Shown: positions 41,726-64,000 of the stretch, one piece after another
Layout: every line of letters starts with the position of its first letter
Position numbering within the stretch: position 1 is the first letter of the stretch
NCBI GenBank assembly: GCA_003221455.1
Contig: QHRX01000009.1
Coordinates: forward strand, 10,031 to 74,030
Reading direction: 5' to 3'
Origin: Candidatus Rokuibacteriota bacterium
GTDB lineage: Bacteria > Methylomirabilota > Methylomirabilia > Rokubacteriales > CSP1-6
Length of the DNA stretch: 64,000 nt
Translations under genes and position numbers: made by a program
The notes under the pieces: generated by a model
Databases searched by the model: none
What the model saw: only the letters and a program-made list of their open reading frames with translations
What the model was told of the DNA's origin: nothing

Positions 41726-41730
41726 TCGCC

Positions 41731-43029
41731 ATGACGGGTCGTCGGCTCGGCCTGGGAGCGCTCGCCGTCCTGCTCCTGCTCGTGGCGGGCGCGGCCACGC
41801 CGGCCGAGGCGCAAAAACCGCGGCTCCGCGTCTGGCTCCTCCGCACCTACGTGCCCGACGCCAACAAGGCGCTCGAGGCGAGCATTGCCGAGTGGGGCCG
41901 GCAGAAGAACGTCGAGACGTCGATCGAGTACTTCACCTTCGACGACATCGAGACCAAGTACGTCGCGGCGATCGAGACGGACTCCCTGCCTGACGTGGGC
42001 CAGCTCCAGACGATCAGCCCCTCGCGCTACCACGGCATGGGGCGTCTCATGGACGTGAGCGACGTGGTCGCCGACGTCGAGCGGACGAACGGGCCGTTGC
42101 TCGACTCGGCCCTCGCCGCGACCCGCTTCGGCGGTCGCTTCTACGCCGTGCCGTTCAACTACATCACCGATGTCCTGTTCGTCCGCACGGACGTGTTCAA
42201 GAAGGCGGGGGTCCCGTACCCGAAGACCTGGGAGGAGGTACGGGAGGCCGCCCGTCGGATCAAAGCGAAGGGCGTGATGGACTACCCGCTCGGCCAGAGC
42301 TGGAATCGGAGCGCCGACGGCTATGGGGTGTTCCAGGCGCTGCTCTACTCCTACGGAGGCGGCTGGGCCGACGCCCGCGGTCACTACAAGTCGATCATGA
42401 ACGATACCTGGCGGGCGGTCGTCCGGTGGGCGAGCGAGATCTATACCAAGGACAAGACGGTGCCGCCCGACGCGATGGCCTGGACCGGCTTCGGCAACAA
42501 CGAGGCGTACCTCGGCGGCAAGATCGCGATGACCTTCAACGGTCCGAGCATCTACTACGTGCTCGAGAAGGAGAATCGACCGCTCCTCGGCGACACGCTG
42601 ATGCTGGTCAAGCCCGCCGGCCCCGCCGGTCGGAACCACGACGTGTTCCTCCTCTCGTGGGGCGTGTTCAACGGCACCAAGCACGCGGAGCTGGCCCGGG
42701 ACCTGGTTCGCTTCGTCATGTCCCCGGACGAGGCCCGGAAGTACATGTACCAGTCGTGGGGGCAGATGGTGCCGGCCTTCGAGAAGCTCCGCCGCGACCC
42801 CTACTGGCAGAAGAACCCCTCGTACAAGGCGGTCCTCGAGGCGCCGAGCCACGCCCACACTCCCGGCTACCCGGGCCCGCTCACCCCGGCCGCGGCCGAG
42901 GTCGTCGCCACCAACGTCCTCACCGATCTCTGCGCGCGCGTGATCGTGGAGGGCTGGGACGTCGAGCGCGCCCTCCAGGAAGCCGACAAGCGCATCAACG
43001 ACATCTACGCCACTGTGCCCTCCCGATAG
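41731..43029 (+). CDS. ABC transporter substrate-binding protein (family 1, carbohydrate)
   Basis: Signal peptide and family-1 SBP fold pattern. Confidence 0.85.
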   Translation: MTGRRLGLGALAVLLLLVAGAATPAEAQKPRLRVWLLRTYVPDANKALEASIAEWGRQKNVETSIEYFTFDDIETKYVAAIETDSLPDVGQLQTISPSRYHGMGRLMDVSDVVADVERTNGPLLDSALAATRFGGRFYAVPFNYITDVLFVRTDVFKKAGVPYPKTWEEVREAARRIKAKGVMDYPLGQSWNRSADGYGVFQALLYSYGGGWADARGHYKSIMNDTWRAVVRWASEIYTKDKTVPPDAMAWTGFGNNEAYLGGKIAMTFNGPSIYYVLEKENRPLLGDTLMLVKPAGPAGRNHDVFLLSWGVFNGTKHAELARDLVRFVMSPDEARKYMYQSWGQMVPAFEKLRRDPYWQKNPSYKAVLEAPSHAHTPGYPGPLTPAAAEVVATNVLTDLCARVIVEGWDVERALQEADKRINDIYATVPSR

Positions 43030-43078
43030 CGTCGCCTCCTCCGCCCCCGCGCTCGGGCGGGCCTCGGCGAGCCGACGG

Positions 43079-43945
43079 GTGCTCCCGCCCGATGCCGGGA
43101 TCGGCTACCTGTTCGTCCTGCCGCTCGTCGTCCTCGTCCTCCTGCTGATCGCCTATCCGCTCGGGAGCGCCGTCTATCTGAGCCTCACCGAGAAGTACGT
43201 CGGGTACCCGCCGCGCTTCGTCGGTCTGAAGAACTACGTGGAGCTGACGGGGGACCCGGTCTTCCGGAAGGTCATCTGGAACAGCGCGGTGTTCACCGTC
43301 GGGTCGGTGACGGTCAAGCTCATGATCGGGCTCCTGATGGCGCTCTCGCTCCACCAGGCGCTCTTCGCGCGGCGCCTCGTCCGCGGCCTCTTGCTCCTGC
43401 CGTGGGTCGTCCCCACCGTCATCACCGCGCTCGCGTGGCACTGGATGTTCGACGCGCTCCGCGGCTTCATCAACGTGTCGCTCGAGACCCTCGGCCTGAT
43501 CGGTGAGCCGATCGCCTGGCTCGGGCAACCGTCCACGGCCATGATGGCCGTGGTCGTCGTCAACATCTGGCGCGGGTTCCCCTTCTTCGGCGTCTCGCTG
43601 CTGGCGGGCCTCCAGGCCATCCCGGCCGATCTCTACGAGGCGGCCGCCGTGGACGGCGCCTCGGCCACCCAGCGGTTCCGCCACGTCACGCTTCCCGGAC
43701 TCCGCCCGGTGATCTTCGTGACCACGCTGATCTCGACGATCTTCACGCTCAACGACTTCAACATCGTCTACGTGATGACGCGGGGCGGCCCCGGCATCGC
43801 CACCCACATCCTCGCCACGTACACCTACGAGGTCGGGTTCCAGGCGCTGCGCTGGGGTCGGGCGGTGGCGGTCTCGATGTACCTGATGCCCCTCGTGGTG
43901 GTGATGATCGTCGTGCTCGCCCGGCGGCTGACGCGGGAGGACTGA
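43079..43945 (+). CDS. ABC transporter permease (MalF/UgpA-like)
   Basis: 6 TM helices. EAA loop (EAAAVDGASATQRFRHVTLP). Confidence 0.85.
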   Translation: MLPPDAGIGYLFVLPLVVLVLLLIAYPLGSAVYLSLTEKYVGYPPRFVGLKNYVELTGDPVFRKVIWNSAVFTVGSVTVKLMIGLLMALSLHQALFARRLVRGLLLLPWVVPTVITALAWHWMFDALRGFINVSLETLGLIGEPIAWLGQPSTAMMAVVVVNIWRGFPFFGVSLLAGLQAIPADLYEAAAVDGASATQRFRHVTLPGLRPVIFVTTLISTIFTLNDFNIVYVMTRGGPGIATHILATYTYEVGFQALRWGRAVAVSMYLMPLVVVMIVVLARRLTRED

Positions 43946-43946
43946 G

Positions 43947-44765
43947 GTGGGGGCCCGCGTGCTCGCCTGGGTGTCTCTCTCGGTCCTGCTCGTGGCCGTG
44001 GGCGTGCCCTTCTACTGGATGGTGACCACGTCGCTCAAGACGTCGACCCAGATCCAGAGCCTCACGCCCTACTACTACCCGCGCCCGGTCACCTTCGGGA
44101 ACTACGTCGAGCTCCTGCGCGGCACCGGCTTTCCGCGCTGGATCCGCAACAGCACGGCCGTGGCGCTGGGCGCCTCGCTGGTGACGGTCCTCGTGAGCTG
44201 TCTGGCCGGCTACAGCCTCGCGCGCATCCGCTACCCGGGGCGGCGCCTCCTGGCCACGACGGTGCTGGTCGTCTACCTGGTACCGCCGACGCTCCTCTTC
44301 ATCCCGCTCTATACGATCCTCAACGGCCTCGGCCTCGCCAACACGCTCTGGGCCCTGCTCGTCGCGTACCCGACCTTCACGGTCCCGTTCTGCACGTGGC
44401 TCCTGATCGGGTTCTTCCGGTCGATCCCGCCCGACCTCGAGGACGCGGCCATGGTGGATGGCGCGAGCCGCGTCCAGGCCTTTCACCGCGTCGTCCTTCC
44501 GCTGGCGGCGCCGGGCGTGCTCGCGGCCGGGCTCTTCGCGTTCACGCTCGCCTGGAACGAGTTCCTGTACGCGCTCGTGTTCATCCACGACGGCGACCTG
44601 AAGACGATCCCGGTCGGGCTGAACGACCTGATGTTCGGCGACATCTTCCTGTGGGGCCAGCTCATGGCGGCGTCGGTGCTCACGACGGTGCCCGTCGTCG
44701 TGCTCTACACCTACCTGCAGCGCTACATGGTCGAGGGGCTGACCGCGGGCGCGGTGAAGGGGTAG
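43947..44765 (+). CDS. ABC transporter permease (MalG/UgpE-like)
   Basis: EAA loop (DLEDAAMVDGASRVQAF). GTG start 1 nt after the upstream stop. Confidence 0.85.
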   Translation: MGARVLAWVSLSVLLVAVGVPFYWMVTTSLKTSTQIQSLTPYYYPRPVTFGNYVELLRGTGFPRWIRNSTAVALGASLVTVLVSCLAGYSLARIRYPGRRLLATTVLVVYLVPPTLLFIPLYTILNGLGLANTLWALLVAYPTFTVPFCTWLLIGFFRSIPPDLEDAAMVDGASRVQAFHRVVLPLAAPGVLAAGLFAFTLAWNEFLYALVFIHDGDLKTIPVGLNDLMFGDIFLWGQLMAASVLTTVPVVVLYTYLQRYMVEGLTAGAVKG

Positions 44766-44767
44766 GC

Positions 44768-45598
44768 TCAGAAGACCTCGTCACGCTCGCCGAACTCGAA
44801 CTCCTCGGTCCGGTCGTCGAGCCCCTCGCGGGTCAGGATCCCCCCCTCGATGAGGAGCCCCTCGAACGCCCGGAGCCAGCGTTCGTAGTAGGTGGACTCC
44901 TCGCCGCGGGTCTCGGCGGCGGCGATCTCGGCGCTGAGGCGCCGCTGGAAGTCCCGCCAGTCGTAGACGCGTCGATCCTGGAGCGCGACCGCCATGCCGA
45001 AGACGCGCCCCTGCCAGGGCGCCTCGAAGAGGAGCTCCCCGTTCCGCCGGGGAACGGCAGCCGGCCCGTCCATGTTCGCGACGAGGCGGTCCGGCGTCGG
45101 CGCCGAGGGCCCGGGCGCCGTGGGAGGGGGGACGAGGGGGGCGCCGTCGCCGGACCCCGCGCGGGGCCGGAGATGGCGATCGTCGACGGGCTGGCCGTCC
45201 GGGCGCTCGACCCACGTCGAGGCGGTGAACTGGAGAGCGGCGAGAGCGGGCGGGGGTGGCTGCCAGCCATCCGCCCCGAGGAGCTCCTCGACATAGTCGT
45301 AGAGCGCCCGCGCCTGGGCCTCGGAGTTGATCGAGTGGAACCAGGCCTGGCGGCCGTCGAAGAGCAGCATGACCACGTTGGCGAGGCGGCAGGGGCCGAG
45401 GCAGCCGCCGATGGTGAGGTGGACGCGGTGACGCAGGCTCCGTCGCTCCCACTCGTCGTGGAACCGCGCGCGCGGCACCGGCGGGAAGCCGGCCTCGGTG
45501 CGGCCGCAGCAGCAGCCGTCGGCGCAGACGAAGAGGTGGCCGCGCGTGCGCGGCACCTGGAGGCGTCGGCCGTCGGCTCGGGACACGATGTTGCGCAT
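44768..45598 (-). CDS. nitrile hydratase accessory/activator-like protein with N-terminal thioredoxin-like [2Fe-2S] ferredoxin domain
   Basis: N-terminal HLFVC..C.C...(about 30 aa)...GGCLGPC..ANVVML.FDGRQAW matches the Trx-like 2Fe-2S ferredoxin pattern. C-terminal half resembles NHase beta/accessory proteins (LFEAPWQGRVFGMAVAL, YYERWL). Confidence 0.55.
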   Translation of the reverse strand: MRNIVSRADGRRLQVPRTRGHLFVCADGCCCGRTEAGFPPVPRARFHDEWERRSLRHRVHLTIGGCLGPCRLANVVMLLFDGRQAWFHSINSEAQARALYDYVEELLGADGWQPPPPALAALQFTASTWVERPDGQPVDDRHLRPRAGSGDGAPLVPPPTAPGPSAPTPDRLVANMDGPAAVPRRNGELLFEAPWQGRVFGMAVALQDRRVYDWRDFQRRLSAEIAAAETRGEESTYYERWLRAFEGLLIEGGILTREGLDDRTEEFEFGERDEVF

Positions 45599-45623
45599 GG
45601 CGGCGTCGACGGAGGCCGCGAGA

Positions 45624-46238
45624 CTACCGCGCCGGGGCCGCCGCCGTCACCCGGGCCACCCCGATCATCGCGTCACGGGTGACGAGCCGCGCCAGCTCGG
45701 CCTCGCCGAGGTGCCCGGTGCCGGCGGGGCGTTCGGGCAGCACCAGGTAGCGGACCTCGGCGCTGCTGTCCCAGACCCGAACCTCGACCGACTCGGGGAG
45801 CTCGAGACCGAACTCGCGCAGGAGCGTCCGCGGTTCGAGCACGGCCCGCGAGCGATAGGCGGGCATCTTGTACCAGTTCGGTGGCAGCCCCAGCACCGGC
45901 CACGGATAGCAGGAGCAGAGCGTGCAGACGACCAGGTTGTGCACGGTCGGGGTGTTCTCCACGGCGACCAGCTTGTCGCCGCCGCCGCGGCCGCCGAAGC
46001 CGAGCTCCGCGATGGCCGCGGCGCCGTCGGCGAGGAGCCGCTGCTTGTAGGCCGAATCGACCCAGGCGCGCGCCACCACCCGGGCGCCGTTCATCGGGCC
46101 GACGTCGTTCTCGTAGATGGCCACCAGCTTGTCCACGACGTCGCTGGACAGGAGCCCCTTCTCGATCAGCAGCGACTCGAGCGCCCGCACGCGGAGCGCC
46201 GGGTACGGCTCGGGCTCGGAGTTATGCGTGCCGCCCAT
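45624..46238 (-). CDS. nthA: nitrile hydratase alpha subunit (cobalt type)
   Basis: Metal-binding claw [10 protein letters not shown]. The Thr/Tyr variant is typical of Co-type enzymes. 204 aa. Confidence 0.85.
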
Positions 46239-53317: not shown

Positions 53318-53569
53318 GCTTCCGAGTCGCGAGAAGCTCATCGCGGCTCTCTCCGTTCCCGACGGGCAGGGCCGGATCGTGCGGGTCATTCCGGCGACGG
53401 ACTATCGCCGGGCGACCGAGCCCGCGGGCAACGGGCGTCCCGGGAGGGAGCCCATGGCGACCCGTACGGGGAGAGGTCCGGGAACCCAGGCCAGGACTCC
53501 GCCACGAACTAGGGGCGGGAGCCGAACGTGCGATCTGACGGACATGCGGCACCTGGGGGGAGCGTCGCG

Positions 53570-54175
53570 ATGACGATTACGAGACCGGGGTGGACCTTTC
53601 TGCTGACGCTGTTGGCGAGCGTACTGGTCGGGTCGGCCGGGTGCGCGCCCGCGGTCGCACCGGCTCCGGCCACAGTCCGCCGTATTGCAGTCCTGCCCCC
53701 GTTCGATGCCATGGGAGCTCCGCTTAGTCCGAGGGCGCCCGCCGACCTCGGTGCGGCCCCGACGCTGGGCCTCCGTGCGATCCTCGCGTCAGAGGCCCGC
53801 ACACAACTCGCTCGTCAGGGCTTCGAGGTCGTCGACCCGAACTTCGTGGAGACGGCGACCGGAGGACGAGTGCCGTCGAGTCCCGAGATGGCGGCCGAGA
53901 TCCTTCGGTCGGTGAAGCTCGATGCGGCGGGCTTGTTTATGCGGGTGCGTCGCTGGGAGTTCCCGTATCCGACCTTCCGGACGGACGAGGTCATCGTCTC
54001 GCTCGACGCGCTGCTCGTGGACCCGACGAGCGGCCAGATTGTTTGGCAGGTGCGGCGTCCTGCGAAGCCCGTGCCGTTGCATGGCGTGGCCATCGGCGGG
54101 CAGGCGGACGCCGTGGCAGCGGAAGAGGTAATGAAGGAGGTGCTCGCGCCGCTCGGCCAGCGGTTGCCGTCGTGA
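53570..54175 (+). CDS. lipoprotein (LpoB/DUF799-like), hypothetical
   Basis: Lipobox LVGSAGC, then RRIAVLPPFDA as in LpoB-like periplasmic lipoproteins. Confidence 0.5.
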   Translation: MTITRPGWTFLLTLLASVLVGSAGCAPAVAPAPATVRRIAVLPPFDAMGAPLSPRAPADLGAAPTLGLRAILASEARTQLARQGFEVVDPNFVETATGGRVPSSPEMAAEILRSVKLDAAGLFMRVRRWEFPYPTFRTDEVIVSLDALLVDPTSGQIVWQVRRPAKPVPLHGVAIGGQADAVAAEEVMKEVLAPLGQRLPS

Positions 54176-54266
54176 GCGGCGGATAGAAGGTACTGTTCCC
54201 CGCTCCTTGACGGGGCGTGCCCACACCTGCCGTCCCGAGACCCTGACCGCCCCGCCGGGGCTTCCG

Positions 54267-55136
54267 CTACAGGTGGTGGAGCTTCGGGTCGAGCTCGTCG
54301 CGCAGCCAGTCGCCCACCAAGTTGAAGGCCAGGACCACGAGGAGGATGGCGAGGCCGGGGAAGAACGAGACCCACCAGGCGCTCGCGACGTAGTCGCGTC
54401 CCTCCGCGATCATCGAGCCCCACGCCGGCGTCGGCGGCGGGATGCCCGCCCCCAGGAAGGAGAGCGACGCCTCCACGATGATGACGTAGCCGATCTGGAG
54501 GCTCAGAAGCACGAGCAGCGAGGGCAGGGTATTGGGCAGCAGGTGCACGAGGATGATGCGGCGGTCCGAGCAGCCGGTGAGGCGCGCCTGGGCGATAAAG
54601 TCGCGCTCCATCAACGCCAGCACCTCGCCGTAGACGACCCGCGCGTACCGGGCCCACAGGATGGCGCCGATTGCGATCACGACGTTGACGAAGCTCGGCC
54701 CCGCCGTCACCGCCAAGACCAGCGCGAGCAGGATGACGGGCAGGGCGAGCGTGGCGTCCGTCAGCCGCATGAGCAGGCTCCCGATCCGGCCGCGGTAATA
54801 GCCGGCCAGGAGGCCGACGGCGGCGCCGACCAGCCCCGCCAGCAGCACGGTCACGACGCCCGCCGTCAGCGACACGCGGGCACCGAAGATGATGCGCGAG
54901 AGGAGGTCGCGCCCGAGGCGGTCGGTGCCGAGCGGGTGCGCCCAGGAGCCGTCGGCCGCCCAGACCGGCGGGGCGAGCCGGGCGCGGAGCGACTGCGCGT
55001 AGGGGTCGGCAGGGCTCAGGCGGCCCGCCGCCAGGGCGAGGAGCACGAAGGCCGCGATGATCATGACGGGAATCACCGGCATCCGCCGGAACAGGGAGCT
55101 ACGACGCCAGGCCGATTCGGGGGTCGATGACGGCAT
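54267..55136 (-). CDS. ABC transporter permease (DppC/OppC-like)
   Basis: EAA loop region and 6 TM helices. Real start may be the internal Met (MPVIPV). Confidence 0.85.
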   Translation of the reverse strand: MPSSTPESAWRRSSLFRRMPVIPVMIIAAFVLLALAAGRLSPADPYAQSLRARLAPPVWAADGSWAHPLGTDRLGRDLLSRIIFGARVSLTAGVVTVLLAGLVGAAVGLLAGYYRGRIGSLLMRLTDATLALPVILLALVLAVTAGPSFVNVVIAIGAILWARYARVVYGEVLALMERDFIAQARLTGCSDRRIILVHLLPNTLPSLLVLLSLQIGYVIIVEASLSFLGAGIPPPTPAWGSMIAEGRDYVASAWWVSFFPGLAILLVVLAFNLVGDWLRDELDPKLHHL

Positions 55137-56019
55137 AGAGCAGGTCGACGGCGAAGTTCACGGTCACCACGATGGCAGCGGTCACGAGCACGACGGCCTG
55201 GATGACCGGAAAGTCGCGTCCGGTGATCGCCTCGTAGGCGAGCCGGCCCATGCCCGGCCAGGCGAAGACGGTCTCCACGACGATCGCGCTCGTCACCAGG
55301 ATCGCGAAGTAGACGCCGGCGAACGTGACGACCGGGATCAGCGCGTTCCTGAGCGCGTGGCGCCAGACCACCGACACTTCCGACGCGCCCTTGGCGCGGG
55401 CGGTCGTGACGTACTCCGCGTCGAGGACCTCGAGCATCGCGGAGCGGAGCAGGCGCATGAGCCCGGCGACGACGAACCAGCCAAGGGTGAAACCCGGCAG
55501 GATGTAGTGGGCGAGGCTCCCGCTGCCCCCCGCCGGCAGCCACTGGAGGCGGCCGGCCACGACCTCGATCAGCACGATGCCGACCCAGAACGTCGGGAGC
55601 GACTGACCGAGGGTCGCGAGGACCTTGGCGCCGGAGTCGAGCGCGGTTCCCCTCCGTACCGCCGCCAGCACGCCGAGGGGGAACGCGATGAGCAGGCTCA
55701 CGGCCATCGAGAACGCGGCGAGGGCGAGCGAGTTCGGGAGCCGCTCTCGCAGGAGCTCGACGACCGGCCGGCGGGAGCGGATCGACGTGCCGAAGTCCCC
55801 CGTGGCCGCCCGCCCGACAAAGGTCACGTACTGGGCGTAAAGCGGGCGATCGAGGCCGAGGTACCGGCGCGCGTTGGCGAAGTCCTCCTCGGTGGCGACC
55901 ATCGGCAGGACCAAGGTGAGCGGGTCGCCGGTGGCGCGGGCGAGCCCGAAGATCACGACCGAGAACAGGAGGAGGGTGATCGCCGACTGGCTCAGGCGTG
56001 CCAGCACGAAGCGGAGCAT
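55099..56019 (-). CDS. ABC transporter permease (DppB/OppB-like)
   Basis: 306 aa, N-terminal MLRFVLARL. Typical DppB. Start at ATG 56019 inside a longer ORF. Confidence 0.85.
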   Translation of the reverse strand: MLRFVLARLSQSAITLLLFSVVIFGLARATGDPLTLVLPMVATEEDFANARRYLGLDRPLYAQYVTFVGRAATGDFGTSIRSRRPVVELLRERLPNSLALAAFSMAVSLLIAFPLGVLAAVRRGTALDSGAKVLATLGQSLPTFWVGIVLIEVVAGRLQWLPAGGSGSLAHYILPGFTLGWFVVAGLMRLLRSAMLEVLDAEYVTTARAKGASEVSVVWRHALRNALIPVVTFAGVYFAILVTSAIVVETVFAWPGMGRLAYEAITGRDFPVIQAVVLVTAAIVVTVNFAVDLLYAVIDPRIGLAS

Positions 56020-56023
56020 CCGG

Positions 56024-57586
56024 TCAGCGCTCGGCCACCAGCCCGTCGATGTTGAGGTCGAGCATGACGGAGCCCGGGTCCCAGCGGCTGATCCGCTTCG
56101 AGGTGACGTAGGGGGTATGCAGGTAGACGAGGGGGATCCCGTCGTGGTCGCGCCGGAGCCGCGCGAAGGCCTGCCGCATGAGCTCGTTGATCTTCGTGCG
56201 ATCGGTGGTGGTGAGGATCGCGTCAAGCATCCGGTCGATCTCGGGATCGGCGACCGTGTCCGTGGGGCGGGAGGGCGTGTGGGCGAACTTGTCGAGGAGC
56301 GTGTAGGTGCCGATCCAGTCGCGGTTCGGGAGGTTGTAGTAGCCGACGGCGCCGGGCGCCGTCCGGTCCACCCACTGCTTGCGGAAGGCGGGGTAGTCGA
56401 CGGGGACCAGCGTCGGCCGCACGCCGATCTTCTGCCAGTAGCCCGCCAACGCCTCCGCCATCTCCCTGCCCTCGGGCAGGGCCGGGAGCTGGTAAGCGAA
56501 GATGGTGATCGGGAAGCCGTCCCGATAGCCGGCCTCGGCGAGGAGGGCGCGGGCGCGGGCGGGATCGAAGGGGTACCGCCACTCATCGGGCACTGTGAGC
56601 TTGACGTCACGGAACGCCCAGGTGAGCCCGAACGGAATCGCCGCCGGTTCGGCCTTGCCGCCGAAGATGGTGGCCGCGATCTCGCGGCGGTCGATGGCGA
56701 GGTTCAGGGCCTCGCGGACGCGCCGGTCCCGGACCGGCGTCCGGTCCCAGGGGAGAATCCACCAGAGGTGGAGGAGCGAGTCGTTGTCGCGGTAGCGGAC
56801 GGGGAAGCCGGCCTGCTCCATCTCCCGGACCCGATCGCGGCTCACGTCGGCGATATCGACCTCGCCGCGTCGGACCATGGCCATGCGCGTCGACTCCTCG
56901 GGAATGACCCGGAAGGTCACCGTCTGGTACCGGGGCGTGCCGATCCGCCAGTGGTGCGGCACCGCCGCCAGCCGGACGTGCGAACCGGTGACCTGCTCCA
57001 CGAAGCGATAGGGGCCACTGCCGATCGGCTTCCGGGCGAACTCGTCGTCGCCGACCGACTCGATGTACCGCTTGGGCAGGATCATCCCCTCGGTCGCGAG
57101 CGCGCGCGAGAGATACGGCGGGATGACCAGCGTCGGCTCCCGCGTGACGATCACGACGCGGTCGGGGGCGGGCGTCTCGATCCGGTCGAGGAGGGCGCGG
57201 AGGACGCCCGCGTAGCCTGTGGTCGAGCGCGGTCCGATGGCGCGGAGAATGCTGAACCTGACGTCGGCCGATGTGAGCGGGTCGCCGTTGTGGAAGTGCA
57301 CGTCGCGCCGGAGCGTGAACGTCCAGCGCCGGTGGTCGGGCGAGACCTCCCACGCCGTTGCGATGCCGAGCTCCGGGCTCAACCGGCCGTCGGGGGTGAC
57401 GCCGATCAGGTAGTCGAACATCAGCGCCAGGTAGAACTTCACGCCGTGCCCGCCGAGGGCGGGATCAAGCACCTCGTTGGCGAAGCTCGAGAGCGCCACC
57501 GTGAGTTCTCCCGCCGGTGGGGCCGCGGCCCCCGTGGCCTCTGTCGCGGTGAGGAGGAGCAGCAGGAGCGCCGTGGTCGCGCGCAT
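56024..57586 (-). CDS. ABC transporter substrate-binding protein, family 5 (peptide/nickel/opine type)
   Basis: Signal peptide (LLLLLLTATEATGAAA) plus family-5 SBP body. The start ATG shares its A with the upstream gene's stop (TGATG). Confidence 0.85.
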   Translation of the reverse strand: MRATTALLLLLLTATEATGAAAPPAGELTVALSSFANEVLDPALGGHGVKFYLALMFDYLIGVTPDGRLSPELGIATAWEVSPDHRRWTFTLRRDVHFHNGDPLTSADVRFSILRAIGPRSTTGYAGVLRALLDRIETPAPDRVVIVTREPTLVIPPYLSRALATEGMILPKRYIESVGDDEFARKPIGSGPYRFVEQVTGSHVRLAAVPHHWRIGTPRYQTVTFRVIPEESTRMAMVRRGEVDIADVSRDRVREMEQAGFPVRYRDNDSLLHLWWILPWDRTPVRDRRVREALNLAIDRREIAATIFGGKAEPAAIPFGLTWAFRDVKLTVPDEWRYPFDPARARALLAEAGYRDGFPITIFAYQLPALPEGREMAEALAGYWQKIGVRPTLVPVDYPAFRKQWVDRTAPGAVGYYNLPNRDWIGTYTLLDKFAHTPSRPTDTVADPEIDRMLDAILTTTDRTKINELMRQAFARLRRDHDGIPLVYLHTPYVTSKRISRWDPGSVMLDLNIDGLVAER

Positions 57587-59256
57587 CAATCCTCGACGGG
57601 CATCGTGACTGGCTCGCCCGCGCCGTAGAAGTACGCCCCCCGCCCGGCGGCGCCGCCGACGACGGCGATCTCGAAGCAGTCGGGTGTCTCGACGACGGGC
57701 AGCGGGAGGTCTGGGTGATCGGCGAGCCAGCCGAGCTCGGGGTGGGCGGCCTGGAGCGCCTTCGGCTCCTTGTTCAGCATGAGCGTCCGGAACGGCAGGC
57801 GCGCCGTCTTGTAGAGGGCCTGCTGGATCCGGGCCCGGTCCCACCCCTCGCCGGCGAAGATCTGCGCGTGCTCAGGGCAGACGAAGAGCGTGTTGTGCTC
57901 GCGCTCCTCGGTCTTGTAGCGCGGGTCCGCGCGCCGGCCGATCAGCCAGAGCGCCGTCCCCACCTGGGCGACGTTGGTGGCCGCCGTCGCGAAGACCTGG
58001 ATCAGGTCCTCGGGGCGCGTGCTCCTGAAGTCGTGTAGCTCGCAGATCCCGTAGACGAAGTGGACGGTCACCGTGCTGGCCTCGCGGGCGTAGCCGCGGG
58101 CCACGTGGTAGGGCTCCCACGGGCTCTGGGCCTCGTTCTCCGCGCACGCCAGGCTGTACTTGAGCGGGGAGCCGATCGTGTCCATGTCGGAGACGCCGAC
58201 GTAGGTGTGGCCCACGTTCATCATCGTGAGGCGGACCGCCCGGCCGAGGACGGTGTTGGACGCCGACGGGGCGCCCGGCCCGAGCGCGCACATCCCGGCG
58301 TTGAGGTTCGCCGCCCGCCCCTTCGGCCCGTTGACGAGGACGAGCGGGGCGTGGGGCCCCGTCGACATCGCCTTGTTGCGCAGGTACATCTTCGGCTCCG
58401 CGAGGCAGCGGACCGCGGCGACGAGGAGCGGCAGGTGCTCGGGCCCGCCGCCGGCCATCACGGCGTTGATCGCGAGCTTCTCGACCGTGGCGACGCCGAA
58501 CCCGGGCTCGAGTGTCGCGATGACCTCGCCGGGATCGCGGGCGCTGCCGCGCAGCATGGCCTCGACGGCGCGGCCGGTCGGCGCCACCAGCGGGAAGCCG
58601 TCGCTCCAGCCCCGCGCGAGGAAGTCCCGGTTCATGCGACTCCACGCGTCGAGCAGGTCAGGCCCGTCGTAGGTGAGCCGTTCCTCCACGGCGGGACGAC
58701 CGACGTCGGCGCACGCCTCGACGGGGCGGGTGAGCCCGGCGACCACCTGATCAAACGCCTCCGTCACCATGCGGTGGATGTCCTCGGGGCGCCGGTTCGT
58801 CAGGGGCGTCGGCACCACCGCGAGCGGCAGGCCGGCGAGCCCGAAACTCTGTGCGCTCCGCCGCGCGTCCTGGACGAAGGCCTCGGCGGTGATGATCACG
58901 GTCGGGACCCCCCGTCGCTCGAGCTCGACCATGTCGTGGACACCCCACGACGTGCACGACCCTCAGTCGTTGGTGGTGCCGACGACGGCGTCGACCTCTG
59001 CCGCGATGCGGTCGGCGTCCTCCGCGGTGCAGTGCCGCATGAGCCAGCCGACCGAGCCCGTGTAGCGCTTGAACCTGGCGCCGGGAAAGCGCTCCCGGAG
59101 GAGCTGCTCGGTGCGATCGAGCGCGGCGTCGCCGCCCGCCTTCATGTTCCAGTAGAGGCCAATCGTCGCATGGCCGAGGTCGCGGAGCCGCGGCGCGGGC
59201 TTCACCGATTGCTCGACGACGTTCGCGACGGGACTCAGGATCTCGAGGCTCGCCAT
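57586..59256 (-). CDS. candidate selenoprotein with UGSC motif (in-frame TGA at 58965-58963 read as Sec), fused to a large C-terminal uncharacterised domain
   Basis: ORFs 58963..59256 and 57586..58932 are in the same frame, separated only by a TGA. The joined reading gives ...VVGTTND-U-GSC-TSWGVHDMVELERRGVPTVII..., placing U inside a U-G-S-C motif. A 7-bp-stem hairpin begins 12 nt 3' of the TGA. The alternative is two separate genes with ATG at 58932. Confidence 0.5.
58933..58951 (-). promoter_or_regulatory. candidate bacterial SECIS hairpin downstream of in-frame UGA
   Basis: GTCGTGG-GGTGT-CCACGAC perfect 7-bp stem with a G/U-rich 5-nt loop. It starts 12 nt after the TGA at 58965-58963. Confidence 0.4.
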
Positions 59257-59350
59257 CTCCGCACCTCCTCGGGGTGACCGGCCGGCTCACCTCCCCGCCC
59301 GCGGGCCGGTGGCGCGAGGATGGGCCGTCGGAGGGCGTCGCGTCAAGTCC

Positions 59351-59383
59351 TTGGGAAGGCCTTTGGGAAGGCCTTGGGAAGGC
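59351..59383. repeat. three tandem copies of TTGGGAAGGC (CCTTCCCAA on minus strand) in an intergenic region
   Basis: Units at 59351-60, 59363-72 and 59374-83. They lie in the 300-bp gap between pcp and the selenoprotein gene start, upstream of the latter on the minus strand. Confidence 0.7.
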
Positions 59384-59557
59384 GTTGCTGTCGGTCCAGA
59401 CGACGGTCACGGCTCACTTGCTCGGTGAACATGTCACCCCGTGAGCGACCCGCCCCGCGTCTGGGTTGACACGGGAGGCGGCGAGAAGGGGTGCCTGCCG
59501 AGCGAGGAATCGAGACTCCGCACGGGCGCCCGCGTCGGGAGGCTCGGTGAGAGGTGT

Positions 59558-60265
59558 CTAGGCGGTGGGCCTGGAGGAGCTCGCCGGGGGCCGGGGGCGC
59601 TCTTCGAGCGAGACCTCGAGGATGATCCGGGCGGCTTCGACCATGGTCCCGAGGCTCATCGAGGCGAGGGCGTGAGGCGCGTACGGCTCGGCGCTCTTCC
59701 CGGCCCGCACCTCCTCGCAGAGCCGCGCGACCTGCTCGGCGAGGTAGGGCAGGTGCACGAAGCCGCTCGGGACGCCCGCCGCCTGCTCGGCCTGGAGCAC
59801 CGTGTACATGGTGGCGTTGCAGAGGAAGGTGCCCGCCGTGGTCGAGAGGCGGGCGGGGATCCCGGCTCGAAGCAGCGCCTGCTCGATCGCCCGGAGCGGC
59901 AAGGTCGCGGGGAGGGCGGTGAGCCCCTCGGGAACGACCACGTCGTCGGCGAGGCGCGCACCCTCGTTGTCGGGGATGGTGAAGTCGGCGATGTTGACGG
60001 CGACGCGCTCGAGACGGATCACGGGCTCGCCCGGGCAGAGGCCGAGGCTCACCACGGCGACCGGACCGGTCTCCTGCAGCAGATCGTGGATCCGGCGCCG
60101 CAGGGGACCGAAGGTGACGGGGAGGATCCGGCCGACCACCCGGCGGCCCAGGATCTCCGCGCCGTCGAGCTGCTTCACGACCTCGGCCGAGGGGTTACGG
60201 TCGAGGCCGCCGTAGGGCTCGAACCCGGTGAGGAGCGCGACCCTGGGCACCGTGGTCCGGCTCAA
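59558..60265 (-). CDS. pcp: pyroglutamyl-peptidase I (peptidase C15)
   Basis: LLTGFEPYGG N-terminus and catalytic Cys region (AGTFLCNATMY). Confidence 0.85.
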   Translation of the reverse strand: MSRTTVPRVALLTGFEPYGGLDRNPSAEVVKQLDGAEILGRRVVGRILPVTFGPLRRRIHDLLQETGPVAVVSLGLCPGEPVIRLERVAVNIADFTIPDNEGARLADDVVVPEGLTALPATLPLRAIEQALLRAGIPARLSTTAGTFLCNATMYTVLQAEQAAGVPSGFVHLPYLAEQVARLCEEVRAGKSAEPYAPHALASMSLGTMVEAARIILEVSLEERPRPPASSSRPTA

Positions 60266-60392
60266 CGCATCCAGAAAGTCGGGGCGGGACCGCGGGGCGC
60301 CCGGAGGAGCCCGCTCGAGGCTCTGCGCCCGTCGCTCACGTCCTGCCCGCTGGTGCGCTCCATCGGTCGCGCCTCCTTCGTTAGGGTCGGGC

Positions 60393-61446
60393 TCAGGGAA
60401 TTCGGACCGCGCCTTCCATCAGCCGCCGGGCGGTGCGGTAGACCGTCACGCGCGTGGCCACTGGTCCCGGGCCGACCTCGGCCGCGATCGGGAGCACCCC
60501 CGACGGATGGCCGAGGCGGAGGTCGCGCGCGGCCGGGCCGGCGACCTCGTGGACCACCGTGCCCTCGATGCGCGCGGCGACGGCGAGGCACATCGCCGCC
60601 GTCAGCGCGACGGCCCGGTGGCACGCGCCCAGCGAGATGACGCGGGCGATCAGGTCCGCCTGGGTCGCGTCGTAGCGCGCGCGGTCGAGCGCCGTGAAGG
60701 GTGCGGGCGGCGCCACCAGCACGATCTTCGGCACGGCCGCGCTCCCCGGGATCCCCATGAGCCCGGCGGCGGCGGTCCGGATCCGCTCGAGGCGCCCGCC
60801 GAGCGCCCGGTCCGCGTCGATGTCGGTGGGCGACTCGGTGCCGGTCAGTCCGACGTCCTTGGCCCGCACGAACACGACCGGGTTCGTCGCGTCGACGCTC
60901 GAGGCCTCGACCCCCTCGATCAGGTCGCGCGCCGCCGGGGTCGACGAAGTCGAGGGCGATCCGCGCGCCCGTCCCGGCGACGCCCGGCAGCTCGAAGTCG
61001 CCCTCGACCGCGGCCTCGCCGTCGCGGACGGGCACGCGGGCGATGAGGAGCTTCTGCGTATTCGTGTTGTGAATGCGGACCACCGTCGCGGGCTCGACGG
61101 CGGGCACGAGGTGCTCGTCGATCGCGAACGGGCCGACGGCCGCCGAGCAGTTGCCGCAGTTGCCCGTGTAGTCGACGACGGGGCGACCCACCTCCACCTG
61201 GGCGAACGTGAAGTCGACGTCCGCGTCCGGGCGAGCCGGCGGGCCGACGATACAGGCCTTCGAGAGCGACGAGATGCCGCCGCCGAGGCCGTCGAGCTGG
61301 CGGCCGTAGGGATCGGGGCTCCCGAGGGCTCGCAGCAGGACGGCGTCCCGCTCCGGGCCGCGGGGGGGCAGGTCGCGCTCGTGGAAGAAGAGGGCGCGGC
61401 TCGTGCCGCCGCGCATGTAGACCGCCCGGATCTTCCGCTGGCTCAC
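60393..61446 (-). pseudogene. prpF: prpF-like 2-methylaconitate isomerase (PrpF/AcnD-accessory family), reading frame disrupted
   Basis: N-terminal part (VSQRKIRAVYMRGGTSRALFF...ALDFVDPGGA) is in one frame. The C-terminal part (DLIEGVEASSVDATNPVVFVRAKDV...RTARRLMEGAVRIP) is in another. The switch occurs within a GCGCGCG run near 60921-60936. The alternative is a sequencing indel in an intact gene. GTGA overlap with the upstream aconitase gene. Confidence 0.6.
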
Positions 61447-63371
61447 GCGCGGGAGAGCGCTCGGGTGTGGGCCAGCAGCCCGCCGGCGAGGAGGATCTCG
61501 CGCTCGCGCGGGGTGAGGAGGCACCGGGCGGTGTGGCGGGCACCGGTGCGCTCGCTCACGACCGTCACCCGTCCGTCGGCGACGAGCGAGGCCCGCACGG
61601 CCTCGAGCGTCAGCGTCTCGCCCGGCTCGATCGCGTCGTAGGTGTCGGGTTCGATCGTCAAGGGCACGACGCCCCAGTTGATCAGGTTCGCGCGGTGGAT
61701 GGGCGCGAACGACTTCGCGAGCACGGCGCGGACGCCGAGGTACATCGGCGCCACCGCCGCCGCCTCGCGCGACGAGCCCTGGCCGTAGAGCTCGCCGGCG
61801 ACGAGCAGGCCGCGGCCCGCCGCCTTCGCGCGCGCGACGAACTCCGGGTCGACATACTTGAACGTGAACTCCGCGATGGCCGGCACGTTCGAGCGAAACA
61901 CGAGCGCCGCGGACCCGCCCGGCGAGATGTGATCGGTGGAGATCTTGTCGCCGAGCTTCAGAAGGACGGGCGCGGCGAGCCGGTCTGCGACGGGCTCGCC
62001 GAGCGGCACGTCCTTGATGTTGGGGCCGCGGACGACCTCGGCCGGCTCGCCGGGCGCCGCCGGCGGCACGAAGCCGGCGTCCGACGCGAGAAAGTCCGCG
62101 GGGAGGACGAGCGCGGGCAGCGGCGGCCGCGCCCGCGGGTCGGTGATCCGGCCCGTGAGCGCCGAGGCCGCGGCGACCACCGAGGAGCAGAGGTAGACCT
62201 GATCGTCCTTGGCGCCGCTCCGGCCGGGGAAGTTGCGGTTGAACGCGCGGAGGCTGCGGGCGCCGGCCGCGGGCACATGGCCGATCCCCGGACAGGCGCC
62301 GCAGGTGGACTCGGAGATGACGACGCCCGCGGCGAGGAGATCCTGCACGAGCCCTTCGCGCGCCATGACCTCCAGGATCCGGTGCGAGCCCGGGAAGACC
62401 ACGAACGAGACCGATGGGTGCACGCGCCCCCCGCGGACCACCTGCGTCACCGACCACACGTCCTCCCACGAGCCGTTCGTGCAGGAGCCGGCCATGACCT
62501 GCTCGACCGCGGTGCCCGCGACCTCCTCGATCGGCACCACCCGGTCGGGCGAGCCGGGGAGCGCGATCAACGGCGTGATCGTCGAGAGGTCCACGTCGAT
62601 GGCGGCGTCGTAGTCGGCGTCGGGGTCGGGAGCGGCGGGGCGCCAGTCGGCCTCGCGGCCCAGCCGTCGGAAGTAGTCGCGCGTCACCTCGTCGCTCGGG
62701 AAGATCGAGGTCGTGAGCGTCAGCTCGGCGCCCATATTGGCGATCGTCATCCGCTGGGGCAGCGAGAGCGCGGGGAGGCCGGGGCCCGTGTACTCGAAGA
62801 TCTTCCCGGCGCCGCCGCGCACGCTGAGCCGCCGGAGCAGCTCGAGAATCACGTCCTTGGCGGTGACCCACGGACCGAGCGCGCCCCGGAGCCGCACCGC
62901 GACGATCTGCGGCATCGTGAGATAGTGCGGGCCGCCGCCCATCGCGACCGCGACGTCGAGACCGCCCGCGCCGATCGCGAGCATGCCGGCCGCGCCGCAG
63001 AGCGGCGTGTGACTATCCGTTCCGAGCAGCGTCTGGCCGGGGGCGCTGAAGGATTCCAGGTGGACCTGGTGGCAGATGCCGTTGCCGGGCTTGGAGAAGA
63101 CGGCCCCGTAGCGCCGGGACGCGGTCTGCAGATAGCGGTGGTCGTCCGAGTTGCGCGAGTCGAACTGGTACACGTTGTGGTCGATGTAGGTCACGACCCG
63201 TGGCGGCCGGACGTGCGGGAACCCCAGCGCCTCGAACTGGAGGAAGGCCAGCGTCCCGTTGGTGTCGGTGAGGAGGATCTGGTCGGCGGTGATGCCGATC
63301 TCGTCCCCGGCCACGGGCTTGCCCGCGACGAGGTGCGACTCGATCAGCTTCCGCGCGAGCGATTTGCCCAC
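61443..63371 (-). CDS. aconitase-family Fe-S hydratase (AcnD/2-methylcitrate dehydratase-like, 642 aa form)
   Basis: Aconitase catalytic domains (GICHQVHLE, GTDSHTP, Fe-S Cys ligands SCTNGS / CGAC) and a C-terminal swivel domain. Adjacent to prpF and a citrate-synthase homologue. Confidence 0.85.
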   Translation of the reverse strand: MGKSLARKLIESHLVAGKPVAGDEIGITADQILLTDTNGTLAFLQFEALGFPHVRPPRVVTYIDHNVYQFDSRNSDDHRYLQTASRRYGAVFSKPGNGICHQVHLESFSAPGQTLLGTDSHTPLCGAAGMLAIGAGGLDVAVAMGGGPHYLTMPQIVAVRLRGALGPWVTAKDVILELLRRLSVRGGAGKIFEYTGPGLPALSLPQRMTIANMGAELTLTTSIFPSDEVTRDYFRRLGREADWRPAAPDPDADYDAAIDVDLSTITPLIALPGSPDRVVPIEEVAGTAVEQVMAGSCTNGSWEDVWSVTQVVRGGRVHPSVSFVVFPGSHRILEVMAREGLVQDLLAAGVVISESTCGACPGIGHVPAAGARSLRAFNRNFPGRSGAKDDQVYLCSSVVAAASALTGRITDPRARPPLPALVLPADFLASDAGFVPPAAPGEPAEVVRGPNIKDVPLGEPVADRLAAPVLLKLGDKISTDHISPGGSAALVFRSNVPAIAEFTFKYVDPEFVARAKAAGRGLLVAGELYGQGSSREAAAVAPMYLGVRAVLAKSFAPIHRANLINWGVVPLTIEPDTYDAIEPGETLTLEAVRASLVADGRVTVVSERTGARHTARCLLTPREREILLAGGLLAHTRALSRA

Positions 63372-64000
63372 CTACCGCCCTTCCACCGGGGCCCACGGCT
63401 GGCGGATCGGCCCCACGTACTCGGCGCGGGGGCGTATGAGGCGGTTGTCGTCATACTGCTCGATGAGGTTGGCGGTCCAGCCGGCGATGCGGCCGGCCGC
63501 GATGACGGGGGTGAAGAGATCGACGGGGATGCCGAGCGAGTAGAAGAGCGGCGCCGAGTAGAAGTCGACGTTGGGGATGAGGCCCTTGGCCGCCTGGACC
63601 GTCTCGTGCAGGCGCACGGCCATGTCGTACCAGTGCGGCTGGCTCGACTGCCGGCACGCCTGCTCGGCCATGCCGCGCAGGATCGCCGCCCGCGGGTCGC
63701 CCGCCTTGTACACCCGGTGGCCGAAGCCCATGAGCCGGCGCTTCGCCCCGAGGGCGCCGGCGACGAACGCGTCGACGCGGGCGACCTCGCCGATCTCCAG
63801 CAAGGTCCGCATCACGGCCTCGCCCGCGCCGCCGTGGAGCGTGCCCCGGAGCGCGCCGACGCCACCGGCGACGGCCGAGTGCATGTCCGAGAGCGTGGCC
63901 GCGATGACGCGCGTCGTGAACGTGGAGGCGTTCAGCTCGTGCTCGGCGTAGAGGGTGAGGCACGCGTCGAAGGCCTTGGTGTTGACCGCGTTCGGCCGCT
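63372..64000 (-). CDS. prpC: citrate synthase / 2-methylcitrate synthase family (partial, N-terminus beyond window end)
   Basis: C-terminal citrate-synthase signature (GFGHRVYK, catalytic His and Asp). The ORF is open to the window edge. Confidence 0.8.
   Translation of the reverse strand, partial: RPNAVNTKAFDACLTLYAEHELNASTFTTRVIAATLSDMHSAVAGGVGALRGTLHGGAGEAVMRTLLEIGEVARVDAFVAGALGAKRRLMGFGHRVYKAGDPRAAILRGMAEQACRQSSQPHWYDMAVRLHETVQAAKGLIPNVDFYSAPLFYSLGIPVDLFTPVIAAGRIAGWTANLIEQYDDNRLIRPRAEYVGPIRQPWAPVEGR

What the first reader, a model, noticed from the sequence alone, without database searches (positions are those of the whole stretch)
54267..60265. Operon context of the selenoprotein: pyroglutamyl peptidase, repeat-bearing leader, selenoprotein, then a peptide ABC importer with no ATPase genes
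Minus-strand order is pcp (59558..60265), a 300-bp gap with CCTTCCCAA x3, the UGSC protein, a family-5 SBP (56024..57586), a DppB-like permease and a DppC-like permease (54267..55136). A convergent plus-strand lipoprotein gene follows. No DppD/DppF-type ATPase genes follow the permeases. The SBP start is translationally coupled to the selenoprotein stop. The arrangement suggests a dedicated uptake and reductive or processing route for a peptide-like or pyroglutamyl-containing substrate.
Basis: partly seen in the sequence, partly recalled or inferred. Interest (0 to 1): 0.55.

Follow-up and report, generated by a model that had tools for sequence, protein, structure and literature searches.

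The report
Selenoenzyme coupled to ATPase-less importer
A soil Rokubacteria genome encodes a two-part selenium-containing enzyme of unknown function in one operon with a nutrient importer; the importer's missing ATPase genes and the neighbouring pyroglutamyl peptidase are incidental, but the enzyme's uncharacterised partner domain gives a new handle on an orphan selenoprotein family.

Summary
The gene order, the three repeats, the TGATG overlap and the lack of ATPase genes are all real.

- **pcp is not part of the unit.** It belongs to the upstream citrate-synthase/aconitase/PrpF cluster, evolves three to four times faster, and is absent from relatives at 86% identity.
- **The repeats are species-specific.** They sit just upstream of a conserved promoter-like element.
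- **ATPase-less importer operons are normal here.** A second one lies in the same window, and every related cluster examined lacks ATPase genes.
- **The selenoprotein is the substantive result.** It has 556 residues but was deposited as a 448-residue fragment. It fuses a UGSC redox domain (Sec98) to a 380-residue domain with no Pfam, NCBIfam or solved-structure relative. That domain is confidently modelled (pLDDT 95.6).
- **The two modules go together.** In 80 metagenomic loci, 85% of copies of this domain sit directly beside or fused to a UGSC module, and 97% of those modules carry Sec.
- **The pair recurs beside uptake genes.** These include family-5, TRAP and TTT binding proteins, MFS carriers and family III CoA-transferases.

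The best reading is a selenol-based redox enzyme that acts on an imported, carboxylate-bearing small molecule. The substrate is unknown.

The parts
57586..59256 (-). Selenoprotein gene of 556 codons plus stop: a UGSC domain fused to an uncharacterised 380-residue domain. It was deposited as the 448-residue fragment PYM39184.1.
   Evidence: The frame is continuous through TGA. PF24696 spans residues 5-176, on both sides of the TGA. The N-terminal 97 codons are under purifying selection, with dN/dS about 0.25.
58963..58965 (-). UGA codon 98, read as selenocysteine in the motif D-U-G-S-C.
   Evidence: TGA is present in 50 of 52 loci, and TGC (Cys) in the two Xanthobacteraceae genomes. In the metagenomic loci 69 of 71 modules carry TGA.
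58930..58954 (-). SECIS-like hairpin. The 7-bp stem GUCGUGG/CCACGAC has a 5-nt G/U-rich loop and begins 9-12 nt after the UGA.
   Evidence: The fold is; its energy alone is not significant (z 0.30). 96% of pair cells are kept across 37 unique sequences, against 21-48% for slid partners. The stem is broken in the two Cys forms.
58729..59244 (-). UGSC redox domain, residues 5-176. Sec98 and Cys101 sit at the N-terminus of a helix that follows a beta-strand.
57589..58728 (-). C-terminal domain of about 380 residues with no family assignment; presumed substrate-binding or catalytic part.
59317..59346 (-). Conserved promoter-like element: TTGACG, an 18-nt spacer, then CATCCT, about 60 nt upstream of the ATG.
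   Evidence: It is conserved in the window, L065, L055 and L006, while the sequence further upstream is not. It was read by eye and did not pass the consensus scanner.
59351..59384 (-). Three tandem copies of GGCCTTCCCAA directly upstream of the -35-like hexamer.
   Evidence: The repeats occur only in conspecific contigs L063, L064 and L066-L068. They are absent from L065 and from every other locus.
59264..59270 (-). Ribosome-binding site GAGGAGG, 7 nt before the ATG at 59256.
   Evidence: Read directly from the sequence.
56024..57586 (-). Family-5 solute-binding protein with a signal peptide (PYM39183.1). Its start is coupled to the selenoprotein stop through TGATG.
   Evidence: PF00496 at 1.8e-70. 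The closest solved relatives are AgaA (6hlx, 2.8e-36), 6tfq and AccA.
55099..56019 (-). DppB/NikB-like permease.
   Evidence: PF00528 plus PF19300. The best NCBIfam match is Opp2B at 321.7 bits, below its cutoff of 350.
54267..55136 (-). DppC/NikC-like permease; an alternative start is at 55082.
   Evidence: PF00528. The best NCBIfam match is Opp2C at 279.9 bits, below its cutoff of 300. Gene callers on conspecific contigs choose the 271-residue form.
59558..60265 (-). Pyroglutamyl-peptidase-I-like gene. It is adjacent but is not part of the unit; it is the last gene of the upstream citrate-synthase/aconitase/PrpF cluster.
   Evidence: PF01470. It overlaps the prpF stop in L055. It is absent from L058 and from all other loci. 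Its dN is 0.19, against 0.05-0.06 for the other four genes.

Best explanation
**The unit.** The unit is a four-gene operon (selenoprotein, binding protein, two permeases) with its own promoter. pcp is not part of it.

**The enzyme.** The first gene encodes a cytoplasmic two-module enzyme.
- An N-terminal UGSC domain carries a Sec98-x-x-Cys101 pair at the start of a helix. That placement is typical of a redox-active selenol/thiol pair.
- A C-terminal 380-residue domain of unknown fold is presumed to bind the substrate.
- The UGSC module is proposed to serve as the dedicated redox partner, or nucleophile, of the second domain. It would cycle through a selenenylsulfide that cellular reductants re-reduce.

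**Expression.** Making the full protein needs Sec insertion at UGA98, directed by the hairpin just downstream. The binding-protein start overlaps the enzyme's stop, so importer synthesis is tied to completed translation of the enzyme.

**Transport.** The exported binding protein and the permease pair import a small solute, probably one bearing a carboxylate, such as an amino-acid conjugate, an opine-like compound or a short peptide. That solute would be the enzyme's substrate. The ATPase subunits are supplied from elsewhere in the genome.

**Shown:** gene structure, Sec recoding signals, domain architecture, and the conserved pairing and coupling. **Inferred:** the promoter, the redox relay, the substrate class and the ATPase in trans.
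For: **Sec recoding.** The frame is conserved across the TGA, Cys codons replace it in Xanthobacteraceae, and the hairpin is kept only in Sec forms.

**Position of the motif.** In the high-confidence model (pLDDT 93.9), strand 92-98 is followed by helix 101-116, and the CxxC equivalent sits at residues 100-103.

**The two modules are a functional pair.**
- 73 of 86 copies of the domain in 80 metagenomic loci have a UGSC module directly adjacent on the same strand: 30 fused, 31 with a UGSC gene first, and 12 with the domain gene first.
- A permuted fusion exists (P0194).
- A triple fusion with a ferredoxin:thioredoxin-reductase catalytic domain also exists (L062).
- The family has majority cysteines at two columns, 87% and 76%.

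**Coupling to uptake.**
- The TGATG-type overlap is conserved across the subclade.
- The four genes share the same dN and dN/dS.
- Sister clades have TRAP DctPQM 32-224 nt downstream.
- Other lineages have family-5 binding proteins (L050, L053, L070, L092, L118), TctC (8 loci), MFS carriers and a family-1 binding protein.

**Own promoter.** Only the last ~95 nt before the ATG are conserved, and they contain a TTGACG-N18-CATCCT element.

**ATPase in trans.** A second ATPase-less importer lies at 41596-44765. None of the related ABC clusters has an adjacent ATPase.
Against: - No biochemical datum exists for any member of the family.
- The substrate class rests on varied gene neighbourhoods, and many loci show no transporter at all.
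- Direct coupling to a family-5 binding protein is confined to one monophyletic Rokubacteria subclade, so it reflects one evolutionary event.
- The window protein lacks the two family-consensus cysteines at their exact columns: it has Gly270 and Ala370, with Cys371 next door.
- The promoter is read by eye and fails the consensus scanner.
- The energy of the SECIS hairpin is not better than shuffles.
Confidence: 0.55

Rival explanations
1. pcp, the selenoprotein and the importer together take up and process pyroglutamyl-containing or other peptides.
For: The genes are adjacent on one strand in the window and in conspecific contigs. The importer belongs to the peptide/nickel family. The closest solved binding protein, AgaA, is deposited as an agropinic-acid binder. 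Agropinic acid is a lactam resembling 5-oxoproline; that detail is from my own knowledge.
Against: pcp overlaps the prpF stop in L055, and an SNase-like gene separates it from the selenoprotein there. pcp is absent in L058 and in all 50 genome loci. It diverges three to four times faster than the other genes. A conserved promoter-like element lies between pcp and the selenoprotein.
Confidence: 0.1
2. The adjacency is not functional. The importer is an ordinary peptide or nickel transporter, and the selenoprotein is a general redox protein that happens to be co-transcribed with it.
For: Direct coupling is limited to one subclade. The largest Rokubacteria clade instead has a CoA-transferase upstream and no transporter immediately downstream. 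The permeases score just under the nickel Opp2B/Opp2C cutoffs.
Against: The one-base stop/start overlap is kept down to 86% identity. The four genes evolve at the same rate. Uptake genes of five unrelated families recur next to the enzyme in several phyla. Four paralogous fusions each sit beside a family-5 binding protein in L053.
Confidence: 0.2
3. The importer is a decaying remnant, non-functional because its ATPase genes were lost.
For: No ATPase gene lies in the 64-kb window.
Against: All three importer genes are intact with dN/dS 0.16-0.22. The same ATPase-less layout is seen in the window's second importer and in every related cluster examined.
Confidence: 0.05
4. The deposited annotation is right. 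The UGA is a true stop, and the locus holds two separate genes of 97 and 448 residues.
For: Gene callers in every database split the gene this way.
Against: One Pfam model spans both pieces. A Cys codon sits at the same position in the 562-residue Xanthobacteraceae proteins. The upstream piece is under purifying selection. The SECIS-like hairpin is kept only where TGA is present.
Confidence: 0.03

Closest known systems
UGSC-containing selenoprotein family (PF24696, NCBIfam NF041046; Zhang and Gladyshev, PMC2398784)
   Same: The window protein has the UGSC motif with Sec encoded by UGA and a clear Pfam match. Its function is unknown. The 2008 paper already mentions a fusion of UGSC with a conserved domain it called 'Unknown_1'.
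   Different: Here the partner domain is shown to be a large family present in fused, split and permuted forms, with no solved structural relative. The 2008 paper predicted a thioredoxin-like fold for the UGSC domain, but the model is flavodoxin/Rossmann-like. The window protein scores 111.6 bits, below the NCBIfam cutoff of 125. The figure showing Unknown_1 is an image, so its identity with this domain could not be verified.
Selenoprotein B subunits of D-proline and glycine reductase (PrdB, GrdB)
   Same: Both have a UxxC motif. In both, a Sec-bearing module works with a separate substrate-binding partner. There is a local match of about 40 residues around the Sec to TIGR01917, at E 1e-3.
   Different: No significant similarity exists outside that stretch. 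The Pfam glycine-reductase models are not matched. The partner domain is unrelated to PrdA or GrdE, and there is no evidence for a pyruvoyl group.
Dpp/Opp/Nik-type ABC importers (peptide/nickel family)
   Same: The operon has a family-5 binding protein and two permeases of the DppB and DppC types in the usual order.
   Different: No DppD or DppF ATPase genes are present. The first gene of the operon is a cytoplasmic selenoenzyme that is translationally coupled to the binding protein.
ABC importers that share one ATPase encoded elsewhere (MsiK in Streptomyces, MsmK in streptococci, MsmX in Bacillus; from my own knowledge, see also PMC3302838)
   Same: These operons also consist of a binding protein and two permeases only, with the ATPase supplied in trans.
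   Different: The documented cases are sugar importers that use a single MalK-like ATPase. The peptide/nickel family normally uses two ATPases, and sharing has not been shown for this lineage.
Thiol reductases with a fused or dedicated redoxin (for example methionine sulfoxide reductase-thioredoxin fusions, ferredoxin:thioredoxin reductase relays)
   Same: A catalytic domain is paired with a small redox module carrying an xCxxC-type motif. One relative adds a ferredoxin:thioredoxin-reductase catalytic domain.
   Different: The redox module is not thioredoxin-fold. It uses Sec in 97% of sampled cases. The catalytic domain and its reaction are unknown.

Membership tests
UGSC family (PF24696 / NF041046) | Match to the family profile above its curated threshold | tested here: met
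   The Pfam score is 133.4 bits against a cutoff of 25. The NCBIfam equivalog model scores 111.6 bits, below its cutoff of 125.
UGSC family (PF24696 / NF041046) | U/C-G-S-C motif, with U encoded by an in-frame UGA and a downstream SECIS hairpin | tested here: met
   The motif is D-U-G-S-C at codons 97-101. TGA is conserved in 50 of 52 loci. The hairpin is kept in Sec forms and broken in Cys forms.
UGSC family (PF24696 / NF041046) | Small stand-alone protein of about 150-170 residues | tested here: not met
   The protein has 556 residues, and the profile covers only residues 5-176. It is the fused architecture.
Thioredoxin-fold redox proteins (the fold predicted for UGSC in 2008) | Thioredoxin fold | tested here: not met
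GrdB/PrdB selenoprotein B | Full-length similarity to the GrdB/PrdB family | tested here: not met
   Only a 42-residue local match to TIGR01917 was found, at 18 bits against a cutoff of 602. No significant Pfam glycine-reductase match was found in 13 UGSC domains.
Peptide/nickel ABC importer (Dpp/Opp/Nik type) | Family-5 binding protein plus two permeases of the DppB and DppC types | tested here: met
   PF00496, PF00528 and PF19300 are all matched.
Peptide/nickel ABC importer (Dpp/Opp/Nik type) | Two ATPase genes (DppD/DppF type) in the operon | tested here: not met
   No Walker A plus signature ORF is present in the whole window or next to related clusters.
Peptide/nickel ABC importer (Dpp/Opp/Nik type) | Assignment to a characterised substrate subfamily (nickel, dipeptide, oligopeptide, glutathione, opine) | tested here: inconclusive
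   The binding protein is far below every equivalog cutoff; the best is 115 bits against 600. The permeases fall just under the nickel Opp2B/Opp2C cutoffs. The nearest solved binders are opine- and peptide-binding proteins at E 1e-36 to 1e-25.
Pyroglutamyl-peptidase I (C15) | Profile match and the Glu/Cys/His catalytic residues | tested here: met
   PF01470 is matched at 169.6 bits. The sequence contains the LERV, GTFLCN and VHLP motifs (the residue roles are from my own knowledge). The NCBIfam equivalog cutoffs are not reached, at 179.7 against 201.75.
Pyroglutamyl-peptidase I as part of the selenoprotein operon | Conserved co-location with the selenoprotein | tested here: not met
   Co-location is seen only in the window species and in L055. 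It is absent from L058 and from all 50 genome loci.

The most novel reading that the evidence does not exclude
UGSC and its partner domain may together form a widespread, structurally new class of selenium-dependent reductase. In soil and aquatic bacteria it would act on imported carboxylate substrates, for example amino-acid derivatives, opine-like compounds or acyl-CoA intermediates. The chemistry would be analogous to the reductive bond cleavage carried out by proline and glycine reductases, but with an unrelated catalytic partner. In the window's clade, expression of the importer would additionally depend on selenium, because its translation is coupled to read-through of UGA98.
Probability: 0.2. 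Interest if true: 0.8.

Novelty: new variant of a known kind. Interest (0 to 1): 0.5.

Why it matters
[quoted passage not shown] They have had no assigned function since they were first described (PMC2398784, PMC13188914). This work shows that the UGSC module almost always accompanies one specific partner domain. That domain has no family assignment and no solved structural relative.

**Candidate substrates and a test organism.** The pair often sits next to carboxylate-type uptake systems and CoA-transferases, which narrows the search for substrates. A natural Cys form exists in cultured Roseixanthobacter species, so the question can be tested at the bench.

**An annotation error.** Public annotation splits this gene at the UGA throughout the databases.

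**Ordinary features.** The missing ATPases, the neighbouring pcp and the repeats, which first drew attention, are ordinary.

Tried and rejected
- **Rfam.** A scan of 53400-60600 at a permissive threshold found nothing relevant, so there is no known riboswitch or leader.
- **Promoter and terminator scan.** It found no promoter, and no terminator on the minus strand.
- **Gap fold.** The 307-nt gap region folds no better than shuffles, with z -1.5.
- **SNase-like gene.** I looked for a remnant of the gene that relatives carry in the gap. None was found.
- **Repeats.** A search of all loci found them only in conspecific contigs.
- **GrdB/PrdB link.** A Pfam scan of 13 UGSC domains did not support it.
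- **Sequence searches against solved structures.** The full protein, the UGSC profile and the C-terminal-domain profile gave nothing significant.
- **AlphaFold database libraries.** They were not available.
- **Structure prediction of the window protein.** I therefore modelled a 52%-identical Cys homologue and, separately, the window's own C-terminal domain.
- **L001 fragment.** A 168-residue fragment with ABC-ATPase similarity turned out to be a chimeric remnant of an unrelated transporter family.
- **Metal-uptake reading.** I rated a nickel importer plus a metal-handling Sec protein as unlikely. The binding protein is far below the nickel cutoffs, and other clades use TRAP, TTT or MFS carriers.
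Full report
**Origin and anatomy**

The window has 70-75% G+C. Its proteins are identical to entries from a Candidatus Rokubacteria metagenome-assembled genome. The selenoprotein fragment is PYM39184.1 and the binding protein is PYM39183.1.

On the minus strand I confirmed the following features.
- pcp lies at 59558-60265 and matches PF01470. Its start is more likely at 60250.
- A 301-bp gap follows.
- A reading frame runs from 59256 to 57586 and passes through one TGA at 58963-58965.
- A family-5 binding protein lies at 56024-57586. Its ATG shares a base with the preceding stop, giving TGATG.
- A DppB-like permease lies at 55099-56019 and a DppC-like permease at 54267-55136.
- A convergent gene lies at 53528-54175.

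The repeat GGCCTTCCCAA occurs three times at 59351-59384, against 0.68 matches expected by chance. No ORF in any frame of the 64-kb window combines a Walker A motif with an ABC signature. No tRNA gene is present.

**The selenoprotein is real and is a two-domain fusion**

The Pfam UGSC model covers residues 5-176 and spans the TGA. Four lines of evidence support Sec insertion.
- Among 52 related loci, 50 have TGA at this codon. The two Xanthobacteraceae genomes have TGC inside a 562-residue protein that NCBI names 'UGSC family (seleno)protein'.
- The 97 codons upstream of the TGA are under purifying selection, with dN/dS about 0.25.
- A hairpin follows the UGA, with a GUCGUGG/CCACGAC stem and a 5-nt loop. 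It keeps 96% of its pair cells across 37 unique sequences, against 21-48% when the partners are slid.
- The hairpin is disrupted exactly in the two Cys forms. Its folding energy alone is not significant in this G+C-rich background.

All of the 120 best database homologues are annotated as proteins of about 448 residues that start just after the UGA. The gene is therefore split throughout public annotation.

Residues 177-556 match no Pfam or NCBIfam model. This domain nevertheless hits 4252 clusters of a 50%-identity protein library at E<=1e-3.

**Structure**

The window's own C-terminal domain models at pLDDT 95.6. It has no solved relative.
- The best Foldseek match has E 9e-3 and TM 0.17.
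- A profile search of all PDB sequences returns nothing.

The nearly invariant residues are D219, G220, R339, N334, E373, E375 and W380. The family has majority cysteines at two columns, 87% and 76%. The window protein has Gly and Ala at those columns, with Cys371 adjacent.

**UGSC and the partner domain form a pair**

I examined 80 metagenomic loci recovered with a profile of the C-terminal domain. Most are 31-44% identical to the window.
- 73 of the 86 domain copies have a UGSC module immediately adjacent on the same strand.
- Of these, 30 are fused, 31 have a UGSC gene followed by a separate domain gene, and 12 have the domain gene first.
- Five of the 13 copies without a visible UGSC module lie at a contig start.
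- Of the 71 modules with a recognisable motif, 69 have TGA and 2 have Cys.

Other architectures also occur.
- One protein has the permuted order (P0194).
- Some proteins carry the domain in tandem (P0158).
- One protein is a triple fusion of UGSC, the domain and a ferredoxin:thioredoxin-reductase catalytic domain (L062).

Zhang and Gladyshev noted a 'UGSC/Unknown_1' fusion in 2008 (PMC2398784). Their alignment is an image, so I could not confirm that it is the same domain. No searchable paper assigns a function to UGSC.

**Which neighbours are conserved**

Fifty genome loci and several metagenome contigs were compared. pcp is found next to the selenoprotein only in the window species and in L055.
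- In L055, pcp overlaps the prpF stop, and an SNase-like gene separates it from the selenoprotein.
- L058, at 86% identity, has the SNase-like gene but no pcp.
- pcp diverges with dN 0.19, against 0.05-0.06 for the other four genes.

The window has no remnant of the SNase-like gene. Only the last ~95 nt before the ATG are conserved with relatives. This stretch contains TTGACG, an 18-nt spacer and CATCCT, followed by GAGGAGG and the ATG. The repeats lie just upstream of this element. They occur only in conspecific contigs, and one of those (L065) lacks them. I read the gap as a promoter region that carries a species-specific tandem triplication.

The selenoprotein, binding protein and two permeases are kept together with the same overlap in the window, L005, L006, L055-L059 and L063-L068. 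In a neighbour-joining tree these form one subclade.
- Sister clades have TRAP DctPQM genes 32-224 nt downstream (L017, L049).
- The largest Rokubacteria clade has a family III CoA-transferase 14-80 nt upstream.

Outside Rokubacteria the enzyme sits next to a range of uptake and metabolic genes.
- Family-5 binding proteins occur in L050, L070, L092 and L118. In L053, four paralogous fusions each sit beside one.
- TctC binding proteins occur in eight metagenomic loci.
- TTT, MFS and family-1 binding proteins also occur.
- The metabolic neighbours include CoA-transferases, enoyl-CoA hydratase, HpcH aldolase, FAD oxidoreductases, Ldh_2 and aconitase-family genes.

This points to a small carboxylate-bearing substrate taken up from outside, not specifically to a peptide. 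The window's binding protein is closest to AgaA, 6tfq and AccA among solved structures. It lies far below every NCBIfam subfamily cutoff.

**The missing ATPases**

The three importer genes are intact and under purifying selection. A second importer in the window also lacks an ATPase gene. It consists of a family-1/8 binding protein and two permeases at 41596-44765. The same is true of all related clusters in L001, L005, L006, L026, L028, L029, L055 and L058. The only ABC ATPases found in those loci are two-domain proteins located elsewhere. Operons without ATPase genes are thus a habit of this lineage. The principle is known from sugar importers that share one ATPase; that comparison is from my own knowledge.

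**Verdict**

The enzyme and the importer form one unit. pcp, the repeats and the missing ATPases carry no special meaning. The substrate is unknown.

The most likely mechanism is a selenol/thiol redox module serving an uncharacterised catalytic domain that acts on the imported solute. I give this about 0.55 confidence. The broader result may be of use to selenoprotein research. It is the near-obligate pairing of UGSC with a large domain family that has no family assignment and no solved structural relative, in which 97% of the sampled UGSC modules carry Sec.

Noticed in passing
window 60393-61446 (-): The prpF gene is disrupted near 60928. The two halves lie in different frames and about 11 residues are missing. 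The conspecific contig L063 has an intact 362-residue PrpF, so this is either a strain-specific pseudogene or an assembly error.
   Followed up: partly
window 41596-44765 (+): A second ABC importer (a family-1/8 binding protein and two permeases) also lacks an ATPase gene. A convergent nitrile hydratase alpha/beta pair follows at 44768-46238.
   Followed up: partly
window 57586-59256 (-) and public databases: Gene callers everywhere split the selenoprotein at the UGA into a 97-residue and a 448-residue 'hypothetical protein'. The same happens to most relatives, and some are then called from an even later Met and look like stand-alone domains (for example P0223 in L069).
   Followed up: yes
L053:1-21305 (Chloroflexi contig): Several paralogous UGSC-domain fusions are interleaved with family-5 binding-protein genes within 21 kb. 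No permease genes are present.
   Followed up: partly
L062:7452-9485: A single 677-residue reading frame joins UGSC (Sec), the partner domain and a ferredoxin:thioredoxin-reductase catalytic domain. It is flanked by a binding protein, a fumarate-reductase-like flavoprotein, two CoA-transferases, UbiD and an old-yellow-enzyme homologue.
   Followed up: partly
L055:5535-5975 and L058:3455-3994: A small secreted SNase-like gene sits between pcp (or a divergent operon) and the selenoprotein in relatives. It is absent from the window species, where the three repeats lie at the corresponding junction.
   Followed up: partly
window 59558-63900 (-): pcp is the last gene of a citrate-synthase-like, aconitase-family and PrpF cluster, which resembles an AcnD/PrpF-type methylcitrate route. 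A pyroglutamyl peptidase is an odd member of such a cluster.
   Followed up: no
L001:12114-12620: A 168-residue ORF joins the Walker A region of a TauB/SsuB-like ATPase to the C-terminal part of a permease. It is a chimeric remnant of an unrelated ABC transporter.
   Followed up: partly
L002:11376-11618 and L015:8743-8982: In part of the CoA-transferase-linked clade, a small AhpD/CMD-like gene follows the selenoprotein directly. This is another family that often carries a redox CxxC or CxxU motif.
   Followed up: no
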